DNA of 64,000 nt from Eledone cirrhosa (Eukaryota), in assembly GCA_964016885.1 (NCBI GenBank), contig OZ024743.1, positions 121,210,001-121,274,000 of the forward strand, given 5' to 3'. The notes beneath the pieces were generated by a model. The model worked only from the letters and a program-made list of their open reading frames with translations, had not been told where the DNA came from and searched no databases. The stretch's first letter is position 1. Each line of letters begins with the position of its first letter. Below, in pieces: positions 31,329 through 32,876 of the stretch. A program made the position numbers and the translations under genes.

Positions 31329-31749
31329 TTCTCTCCCTTCTTTCGGCGAAAATAAGTATGTAACAGAGTCACTACTTTAAAACCGATAGCGTATGGTCTT
31401 CTAAATGTATACCACGGTTTTTCAGAGCACCAATCCAAATATATATATATATATATATATATATATATATATATATATATAAATGGAATAGAATGAAACG
31501 AAATTTCATTTCTCACTCTTAGTACGGTACTTACTTAAATGTAAGTATGTATGTATACGTACATACATATATGTATACAGACGTACAGTAGTATGTATAT
31601 ATATACATACATGCACACATATATATATGCACGTATCGGTTTACCAACATTTATTATAATGTTCGGATTGTTTGTAAACAAACAGCCCTAATTAAGCCGT
31701 ACAGTGTTCGGCAACCATCGTCGCCCTTTTGTTCAACACTGACAAAGGA

Positions 31750-31792
31750 ACGATGAACTAGTTTCAAGCTTATTAGCTATCGTCAGCATCGT
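31750..31792 (-). ncRNA. Type I hammerhead
   Basis: ACGATG-CTGACGA-TAGCT aata AGCTT-GAAA-CTAG-TT-CATCGT. Confidence 0.85.
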
Positions 31793-32479
31793 ATACCTTC
31801 CTGTCAGATGATTGAACGTTTGAAAGTATATACTTTCCTTATGCATATTAACGGCTGAGCAGCCTAATTTGCATATCGAGTGAGTTCAGTCGGCCGGGCG
31901 CACCGAAAACGATAAATGGAATAGAATGAAACGAAATTTCAATTCTCACTCTTAGTACGGCACTTACTTAAATGTAAGTATGTATGTATACGTACATACA
32001 TATATGTATACAGACGTACAGTAGTATGTATATATATACATACATGCACACATATATATATGCACGTATCGGTTTACCGAACATTTATTATAATGCTCGG
32101 TTTGTTTGTTTGTAAACAAACAAACAGCCCGAATTACGCCGTACAATGTTTAGTCAACCACGTCACCTTTGTTTACAAACAAACAAACCGAGCATTATAA
32201 TAAATGTTCGGTAAACCGATACGTGCATATATATATGTGTGTGCATGTATGTATGCATGTATGTATACTACTGTACGTATACATACATACACACTTACAT
32301 TTAAGTAAGTGCCGTACTAAGAGTGAGAAATGAAATTTCGTTTCATTCTATTCCATTTATCGTTTTCGGTGCGCCCGGCCGACTGAACTCACTGGATATG
32401 CAAATTAGGCTGCTCAGCCGTTAATATGCATAATGAAAGTATATACTTTCAGACGTTCAACCATCTGGCAGGAAGGTAT

Positions 32480-32522
32480 ACGATGCTGACGATAGCTAAT
32501 AAGCTCGAAACTAGTACATCGT
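32480..32522 (+). ncRNA. Type I hammerhead
   Basis: ACGATG-CTGACGA-TAGCT aata AGCTC-GAAA-CTAG-TA-CATCGT. Confidence 0.85.
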
Positions 32523-32876
32523 TCCTGTGTCAGTGCTGAACAAAAAGGTGACGTGGTTGCCTAAACACTGTACGGCGTAATTCGGGCTGTTTGTTTGTTT
32601 ACAAACAAACAAACCGAGCACTATAATAAATGTTCGGTAAACCGATACGTGCATATATATATATATGTGTGCATGTATGTATATATATATACATACTACT
32701 GTACGTCTGTATACATATATGTATGTACGTATACATACATACATACTTACATATATATATATATATATATATATATATATATATATATATATATATATAG
32801 AGAGAGAGAGAGAGAGAGAGAGAGAGAGAGAGAGAGAGAGAGAGAGAAGTAGTATCACAACAGTTACTTCTACATG

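What the first reader, a model, noticed from the sequence alone, without database searches (positions are those of the whole stretch)
31481..32752. Partial-tandem plus inverted 433-bp HHR unit forming a 1.27-kb palindrome
Seen: about 1.5 tandem units on each strand, with well-formed HHRs (6-bp helix I, CTAG palindromic helix III) at 31750 (minus) and 32480 (plus), and a dispersed copy at 46635. Established: non-LTR retrozymes occur as tandem 150-400-nt HHR units, and palindromic helix III permits dimeric cleavage. Inference: the roughly 433-nt monomer is a candidate circular RNA template whose read-around reverse transcription yields more-than-unit-length inserts.
Basis: partly seen in the sequence, partly recalled or inferred. 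Interest (0 to 1): 0.75.

Follow-up and report, generated by a model that had tools for sequence, protein, structure and literature searches.

The report
Two-armed hammerhead retrozyme with Penelope footprint
This is one insertion of a very abundant 430-base non-coding repeat that carries a predicted self-cutting RNA; its back-to-back arms, one ending long and one short in a TA tract, indicate that it was likely pasted in by a Penelope-type retrotransposon enzyme, probably copying a small RNA circle, so it is a new family of a known kind.

Summary
Observation confirmed with small corrections. Two head-to-head arms (1.6 and 1.35 units of a 433-nt repeat, 87% self-complementary) sit in (TA)n, each with one type I hammerhead. 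The family has 13,109 exact matches to a hammerhead pattern in the 3-Gb genome.

Across loci, 3' ends fall at two fixed sites about 58 nt apart and 5' ends are scattered. Of 27 classifiable two-armed insertions, 26 have one long and one short end (22 automatic, 4 by eye). An intact Hydra-type Penelope-like element (PLE) in this genome mostly follows the same rule (8 of 9). Units and arms of one insertion share their variant (5-8% discordance against 43% between loci), and arms cross the ribozyme cut site seamlessly. This fits read-around of a monomer circle; an uncleaved linear multimer is not excluded. This locus is atypical: one unit holds a tract from another subfamily.

No RNA run was listed and no partner PLE was identified. 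Verdict: new member of animal non-LTR retrozymes / non-autonomous PLEs. This scan already noted the same kind, with the same end rule, for other unit sizes in this genome.

The parts
31440..31481 (.). (TA)n target tract, left side
   Evidence: sequence; outward flank of the long end
31481..31913 (-). left arm, full 433-nt unit (U1-433), ends at the long 3' site
31481..31540 (-). about 58-60-nt tail (U374-433) present on this arm only; holds a predicted hairpin; similar in sister family F2
31663..31820 (-). tract of subfamily-A sequence (about U94-251; 3' border not sharp) inside an otherwise subfamily-B insertion; gene conversion or template switch inferred
31750..31792 (-). type I hammerhead motif, GUU triplet, predicted cut between 31756 and 31755
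31914..32173 (-). left arm, 5'-truncated upstream unit (U181-433), subfamily B
32168..32173 (.). head-to-head joint of the two arms, 3-6-nt overlap
32168..32358 (+). right arm, 5'-truncated upstream unit (U232-433)
32359..32752 (+). right arm, unit U1-373, ends at the short 3' site (no tail), subfamily B
32480..32522 (+). type I hammerhead motif, GUA triplet, predicted cut after 32516
32753..32847 (.). (TA)n then (GA)n tract, right side
46630..46992 (+). older single-arm copy (U70 to long end), 84% identical, decayed hammerhead

Best explanation
It is a two-armed insertion of a high-copy, protein-free 430-nt hammerhead repeat (non-LTR retrozyme) that was likely integrated by a Penelope-like element's endonuclease and reverse transcriptase, probably from a unit-length circular RNA. 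Shown: the anatomy, copy number, two fixed 3' ends joined to (TA)n through TAT microhomology, scattered 5' ends, one long plus one short end per two-armed insertion, the same variant in all units of an insertion, and covariation of the hammerhead helices. Inferred: (1) tandem loci are transcribed, cut at consecutive hammerheads (possibly as dimers through the palindromic helix III) and ligated to a circle; (2) a PLE protein cuts both strands of a (TA)n tract; (3) each DNA end primes reverse transcription on the same RNA variant, one at U~373 and one at U~430; (4) each arm runs through the cut-and-ligated site and on round the circle until it stops at random; (5) the two cDNA ends are joined by short homology, giving the palindrome. 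The subfamily-A tract in the left unit is likely later gene conversion.
For: Copy number: 13,109 and 28,975 exact matches to two hammerhead patterns, reversed-pattern controls 0. 3' ends: of 119 arm alignments in 67 stretches, 50 short, 49 long, 20 other. End rule: 22 of 24 automatically classifiable pairs long+short, p 1.8e-5; 26 of 27 after reading by eye, p 2e-7; 10 more in the junction-biased set, with 3 undetermined; 8 more in hand-picked loci. The autonomous Hydra-type PLE follows the rule in 8 of 9 loci with both ends visible. One copy inserted in a PLE reading frame has a 6-9-bp target duplication against the uninterrupted copy (L063 vs L062). Discordance at 40 polymorphic positions: 5.4% between tandem units, 7.5% between arms, 42.6% between loci; several distinct haplotypes each fill whole arrays. 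Young arrays have monomers 0-3 substitutions apart across both arms (L186). No gap at the cut site in 25 of 25 full units; 0 of 113 5' ends at U150-168; 97 of 119 arm alignments cross the cut site, 11 of them twice or more. Circular folds of 5 natural monomers: 67-73% paired, z -6.4 to -11.3. Hammerhead: 98.5% of cells paired, 9 of 13 pairs with changes on both sides. Literature: PLE anatomy (PMC8557442), two internal start sites and cleavage of both strands (PMC11167929), the retrozyme circle model (PMC7229834).
Against: No autonomous partner with a homologous terminal repeat was found among three PLE families examined: alignment scores 41-43 against shuffles with 95th percentile 40 and maximum 55, and no fixed link in 34 further loci. 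In vitro, a PLE used unprocessed RNA and did not need hammerhead cleavage (PMC11167929), so a linear uncleaved multimer fits most of the same data. This locus itself is discordant at 17 of 78 site comparisons (22%), and 2 other insertions of 32 reach 22-35%. One possible long+long pair (L094) and 9 undetermined pairs of 37; one short+short pair in the autonomous family (L121). The first helix II pair is a mismatch, and subfamily A has fixed a GUU triplet (31 of 132 motifs), so cleavage may be weak; only 1 of 9 predicted Xenopus retrozymes cleaved in vitro (10.64898/2026.07.22.740005). Some arrays were reshaped at DNA level (L065, identical alternate units). The loci were chosen by a hammerhead match on the first 30 Mb of one chromosome, which biases the 5'-end counts.
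Confidence: 0.6

Rival explanations
1. Same PLE-driven two-armed insertion, but the template is a linear, uncleaved read-through transcript of a tandem master array, and the hammerhead is dispensable for copying.
For: Unprocessed RNA was the main substrate of an anole PLE in vitro (PMC11167929). Near-homogeneous arrays with 4-7 hammerheads exist and could be masters (L186, L187, L189). The seamless cut site and lack of 5' ends there fit equally. The 4.3-kb autonomous PLE forms the same partial tandems.
Against: Subfamily changes, including an 8-nt deletion, fill every unit of dispersed arrays in several haplotypes, which needs a single-unit bottleneck followed by re-multimerisation. 5' truncation would shorten arrays each generation. 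Hammerhead helices are kept by compensatory changes across sister families.
Confidence: 0.27
2. The template is a linear monomer cut at both hammerheads, and the enzyme jumps end to end between monomers.
For: Explains arms longer than one unit and could explain the mixed locus here.
Against: No indel at the cut site in 25 of 25 full units. 0 of 113 5' ends at U150-168. The subfamily-A tract (U94-251) spans the cut site instead of ending there. Units of one arm share their variant.
Confidence: 0.07
3. The palindrome arose at DNA level (fold-back, unequal exchange, MITE or satellite dynamics) or is an assembly artefact.
For: AT-rich internal tracts favour slippage; L065 shows a later two-unit duplication or an assembly artefact; the window holds many long inverted repeats.
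Against: Arms are unequal, begin at unrelated points and end at two different fixed sites with a strict pairing rule. The arms here are only 87% alike. A target duplication is seen at L063. An RT-encoding PLE has the same geometry.
Confidence: 0.04

Closest known systems
Animal non-LTR retrozymes (Cervera and de la Pena 2020, PMC7229834; Li, Clavereau and Pollet 2026, bioRxiv 10.64898/2026.07.22.740005)
   Same: Non-coding, low-GC (37%) unit of a few hundred bases with a type I hammerhead; occurs as monomers, dimers and multimers; predicted highly self-paired circle; short palindromic helix III; PLE proposed as the mobiliser.
   Different: Unit of 420-433 nt (variants to about 540) is at the upper end of the range. 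Most copies are dispersed single- or two-armed insertions, not satellites. RNA circles and cleavage are not shown here, and no homologous PLE terminal repeat was found, unlike many Xenopus families.
Penelope-like elements, insertion anatomy (Craig et al. 2021, PMC8557442, Fig. 2 legend; Hydra clade) and their non-autonomous passengers such as MRC1
   Same: Partial tandem, adjacent inverted 5'-truncated copy, tail at one end only, (TA)n target, hammerhead upstream of the 3' end.
   Different: No RT or GIY-YIG frame. The tail is about 58 nt rather than 30-40. The whole element is one short unit, so both arms can be tandem.
Anole Poseidon PLE in vitro (Frangieh et al. 2024, PMC11167929)
   Same: Two adjacent internal start sites downstream of the hammerhead that define the tail; both target strands cut and extended; AT-rich target.
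   Different: That work saw no difference in start site between strands and no need for ribozyme cleavage. The genomic copies here show that the two ends of one insertion use different sites, and they join to the target through TAT microhomology.

Membership tests
animal non-LTR retrozyme | type I hammerhead in the repeat unit | tested here: met
   Core, helices I-III and covariation; Rfam match is weak and the first helix II pair is a mismatch
animal non-LTR retrozyme | tandem units with consecutive hammerheads (family level) | tested here: met
   9 of 78 clusters among the first 100 matches, spacing 420-433; arrays with up to 7
animal non-LTR retrozyme | two consecutive hammerheads at this locus (criterion for an 'active' copy in Li et al.) | tested here: not met
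   One hammerhead per arm, on opposite strands; this copy is a daughter, not a source
animal non-LTR retrozyme | non-coding, low GC, unit of a few hundred bases | tested here: met
   433 nt, GC 37%; longest ATG frame is 77 aa of repeat-like sequence
animal non-LTR retrozyme | highly self-paired predicted circle | tested here: met
   5 natural monomers from other loci, z -6.4 to -11.3; prediction only
animal non-LTR retrozyme | expressed as unit-length linear and circular RNA; self-cleaves | not testable with these tools
   Needs RNA data or bench work; see Tried and rejected
non-autonomous Penelope-like element | partial tandem with 5' truncation and adjacent inverted copy | tested here: met
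   37 head-to-head pairs in 65 loci plus two window stretches; scattered 5' ends
non-autonomous Penelope-like element | tail extension at one end only (two start sites) | tested here: met
   26 of 27 classifiable pairs
non-autonomous Penelope-like element | (TA)n or AT-rich target, target duplication where visible | tested here: met
   3' flanks; 6-9-bp duplication at L063
non-autonomous Penelope-like element | sequence homology to the terminal repeat of an autonomous PLE | tested here: inconclusive
   None in three families (16, 20 and 14 loci); the genome has tens of thousands of PLE candidates of which 150 per search were scored
autonomous Penelope-like element | RT and GIY-YIG reading frame | tested here: not met
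   No such frame in the finding

The most novel reading that the evidence does not exclude
One small ribozyme-made RNA circle is bound by a PLE dimer that cuts both strands of a TA tract and runs two rolling-circle reverse transcriptions from the same RNA at once, one subunit starting before and one after a 58-nt tail. The palindrome is the direct print of this bidirectional reaction, and tens of thousands of copies make both the PLE mechanism and the retrozyme-circle model testable from sequence.
Probability: 0.4. Interest if true: 0.65.

Novelty: new member of a known kind. Interest (0 to 1): 0.42.

Why it matters
How PLEs make partial-tandem and inverted insertions, and whether animal retrozymes move as circles by PLE enzymes, are both described as open in the papers read (PMC8557442, PMC11167929, PMC7229834). 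This family gives countable genomic evidence: the two ends of an insertion use different start sites and the same RNA variant, and an intact young PLE in the same genome mostly obeys the same rule. That pair would be a practical in vitro system. The class and the PLE link are already proposed, and this scan has noted the pattern for other unit sizes, so the gain is added support and a test system, not a new kind.

Tried and rejected
RNA evidence: no RNA holder listed. Four runs of unrecorded type, held as contigs, were laid on the locus; they show only that the repeat is present and say nothing on expression, ends or circles.

Rfam on the whole window returned microsatellite-driven miRNA matches in the 150 rows shown of 276; these were rejected as noise.

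Partner search: the 714-aa Hydra-type family, a second family and a 713-aa family show no homology to the unit. Apparent hybrids were read as nested insertions: L063, L040 and L178 from their sequence, L155 from its position alone. Pfam, NCBIfam and PDB sequence searches did not name the 714-aa protein; its clade rests on motifs listed in PMC8557442.

My first idea that the mixed variants at this locus reflect a heterodimer master was rejected: subfamily-A insertions are A in all units. The pile-up of 5' ends at U278-287 was treated as largely an alignment effect of (TA)n flanks. The first 30 loci were chosen by a query that spanned the unit junction, so they were not used for 5'-end statistics. 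There is no genome-wide count of two-hammerhead dimers; the count comes from the first 100 listed matches. A look-up of earlier notes by sequence found nothing.

Full report
Observation. The stretch 31481-32752 consists of two arms of one 433-nt unit joined 5' to 5'. With U defined as the reverse complement of 31481-31913, the left arm reads U181-433 then U1-433 on the minus strand, and the right arm U232-433 then U1-373 on the plus strand. The joint at 32168-32173 has a 3-6-nt overlap and both outer ends run into (TA)n. Self-complementarity is 87%. Each arm has one type I hammerhead motif; my motif scan found 6 in the window and none in 50 shuffles. The copy at 46630-46992 is a single, older arm (84%) with a decayed motif that the scan did not pick up.

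The family. The window lies in a 3.0-Gb genome. A 27-place hammerhead pattern has 13,109 exact matches and a 20-place pattern across the cut site 28,975, with reversed controls at 0; the second includes longer unit variants. The first 100 matches form 78 clusters: 9 hold tandem hammerheads 420-433 nt apart, 9 pairs are divergent and none is convergent within 1 kb. I took the loci for matches in the first 29.6 Mb of C1 (70 loci fetched, 5 overlapping duplicates dropped, 65 used) plus two window stretches. This sample is conditioned on an intact hammerhead.

Ends. Of 119 arm alignments, 50 end at U355-381, 49 at U415-433 and 20 elsewhere; many of the last are internal deletions or interruptions by other insertions. 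Both end types pass into (TA)n through TAT. 5' ends are spread over the unit. Of 37 head-to-head pairs, the script classed 22 as long+short, 2 as short+short and 13 as having an 'other' end. By eye, both short+short pairs and two others are alignment breaks of long+short pairs (L090, L100, L078, L084), one is compatible (L033), one may be long+long (L094) and 9 stay undetermined. That gives 26 of 27, p 2e-7 against free pairing. The junction-biased set adds 10 (3 undetermined) and hand-picked loci 8 (2 undetermined, 1 duplicate; one of the 8 corrected by eye). At L063 a two-unit arm sits inside a PLE frame with a 6-9-bp duplication relative to the uninterrupted copy in L062.

This is the anatomy described for PLEs: partial tandems, an adjacent inverted truncated copy, a tail often at one end only, and (TA)n targets (PMC8557442, passages and section 11 read). 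In vitro, an anole PLE cuts and extends both strands and starts reverse transcription at two internal sites that bound the tail (PMC11167929, parts 1-2 of 4 read). The genome holds an intact young PLE with Hydra-clade motifs. Of its 16 loci, 9 showed both outer ends: 8 are long+short and one is short+short with a diverged second copy. Its terminal repeat is not detectably homologous to the unit, nor are those of two other families, so the partner is unidentified.

Template. At 40 positions polymorphic in the family, tandem units of one arm disagree at 44 of 812 comparisons (5.4%), the two arms at 65 of 862 (7.5%) and different loci at 42.6%. Distinct haplotypes, including an 8-nt deletion type and subfamily A with a fixed GUU triplet, each fill whole insertions. 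Young arrays have monomers 0-3 substitutions apart across both arms, mostly private (L186 with 2+7 hammerheads). So both arms come from one unit variant, and new variants pass through one unit and are multimerised again (inference). The cut site is gap-free in 25 of 25 full units, no 5' end lies at U150-168 (0 of 113, after dropping 6 alignment-break rows), and 11 arm alignments cross it at least twice. This argues against jumping between cut linear monomers and fits a circle. It does not exclude an uncleaved linear multimer, which was the main substrate in PMC11167929.

This locus is an outlier (17 of 78 comparisons discordant). The left full unit is subfamily B at both ends and subfamily A from about U94 to U251, across the cut site, while the other three segments match subfamily B where they can be typed. 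Later gene conversion is the simplest reading; a double template switch is possible.

Ribozyme. On 15 motifs I picked from this family and three related ones, 98.5% of cells pair and 9 of 13 pairs change on both sides; slid controls pair at 26-45%. The rows are related, so the shuffle counts are not probabilities. Helix III is a 6-nt palindrome in three different sequences (ACTAGT, ACATGT, ACGCGT), which fits dimeric action as reported for amphibian retrozymes (PMC7229834, passages and Discussion read). Against strong activity: the first helix II pair is U-U in 127 of 132 motifs, 31 of 132 have GUU, Rfam scores only 16.2 bits, and only 1 of 9 predicted Xenopus elements cleaved in vitro (10.64898/2026.07.22.740005, parts 1-3 of 5 read; supplements closed). 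Five natural monomers fold as circles far better than shuffles. Cleavage, expression and circularity were not tested.

Novelty. Non-LTR retrozymes, their proposed circular template and their proposed PLE origin are published. I did not find a count of the one-long-one-short rule or of variant sharing between arms in five searches, but the library lacks most subscription papers and I did not read the older PLE papers cited there. Earlier notes of this scan describe the same kind, some with the same end rule, for 310-, 316/318-, 467- and 530-nt units in this genome; these are unchecked AI notes and not independent support, and I had stated my reading before seeing them. Verdict: real feature, new member of a known kind, interest 0.42. 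My estimates are about 0.9 for PLE-type mobilisation and about 0.6 for the full model with a circular template.

Noticed in passing
L111-L126 (e.g. L111:6855-8999 +, L112, L117, L118): Very young autonomous PLE family: intact 714-715-aa frames, copies up to 99.9% alike, unit about 4.2-4.3 kb, with hammerhead, Hydra-clade motifs (RWK, DKT, CxCx5C, CxxC, CxH) and the same long/short end rule with a tail of about 70 nt.
   Followed up: partly
L172-L185: Second intact PLE family (frames to 713 aa, 42% identical to the first, unit about 3.26 kb) with two 3' ends roughly 90 nt apart but no canonical hammerhead found by my scan.
   Followed up: partly
window 24716-25510 and 56722-57226: Broken fragments of Hydra-type PLE frames.
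   Followed up: partly
window 30958-31484: A different 527-bp palindrome with hammerhead-like cores on both strands (31160 minus, 31292 plus) shares the left (TA)n tract with the finding.
   Followed up: no
window 34510 (+), 54671 (+), 54320 (-), 16870-17215, 45404-48864: Further hammerhead or hammerhead-like cores of other repeat families, several in inverted pairs.
   Followed up: no
window 57630-59154, 21538-22502, 54056-54636, 46046-46514, 21293-21566, 41658-41930, 49082-49461: Many other long inverted repeats; the first contains a DUF7041 frame at 57728-58057.
   Followed up: no
window 36154-37510 and 50711-52633 (minus): Broken reverse transcriptase frames (Pfam RVT_1), probably non-LTR retrotransposons.
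   Followed up: no
L107:2579-2918, L127-L151; L157:2275-2902; L069:1235-1293: Related hammerhead repeats: F2 (69% identical to the unit, similar tail), F3 (65-68%) and F4 (only the hammerhead compared); helix III palindromes ACATGT, ACTAGT and ACGCGT.
   Followed up: partly
L184, L187-L189, L192, L195: Length variants of this family with periods of 456-538 nt, differing mainly in the AT-rich tract; the 466-nt one may be the 467-bp family of an earlier scan note, which I could not compare by sequence.
   Followed up: partly
U121-129 in L053, L054, L062, L065, L068, L075, L083, L085, L088: 9 of the 5' ends cluster at the 5' strand of helix I, several on the second pass; partly ascertainment (L053 is an alignment break), otherwise unexplained.
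   Followed up: no
L065:2837-4773: Five-hammerhead array in which units 1 and 3, and 2 and 4, are identical: a later two-unit duplication or an assembly artefact.
   Followed up: partly
L080, about 100 nt past position 3383: Flank resembles the 3' part of U6 snRNA (recalled, not tested; seen).
   Followed up: no
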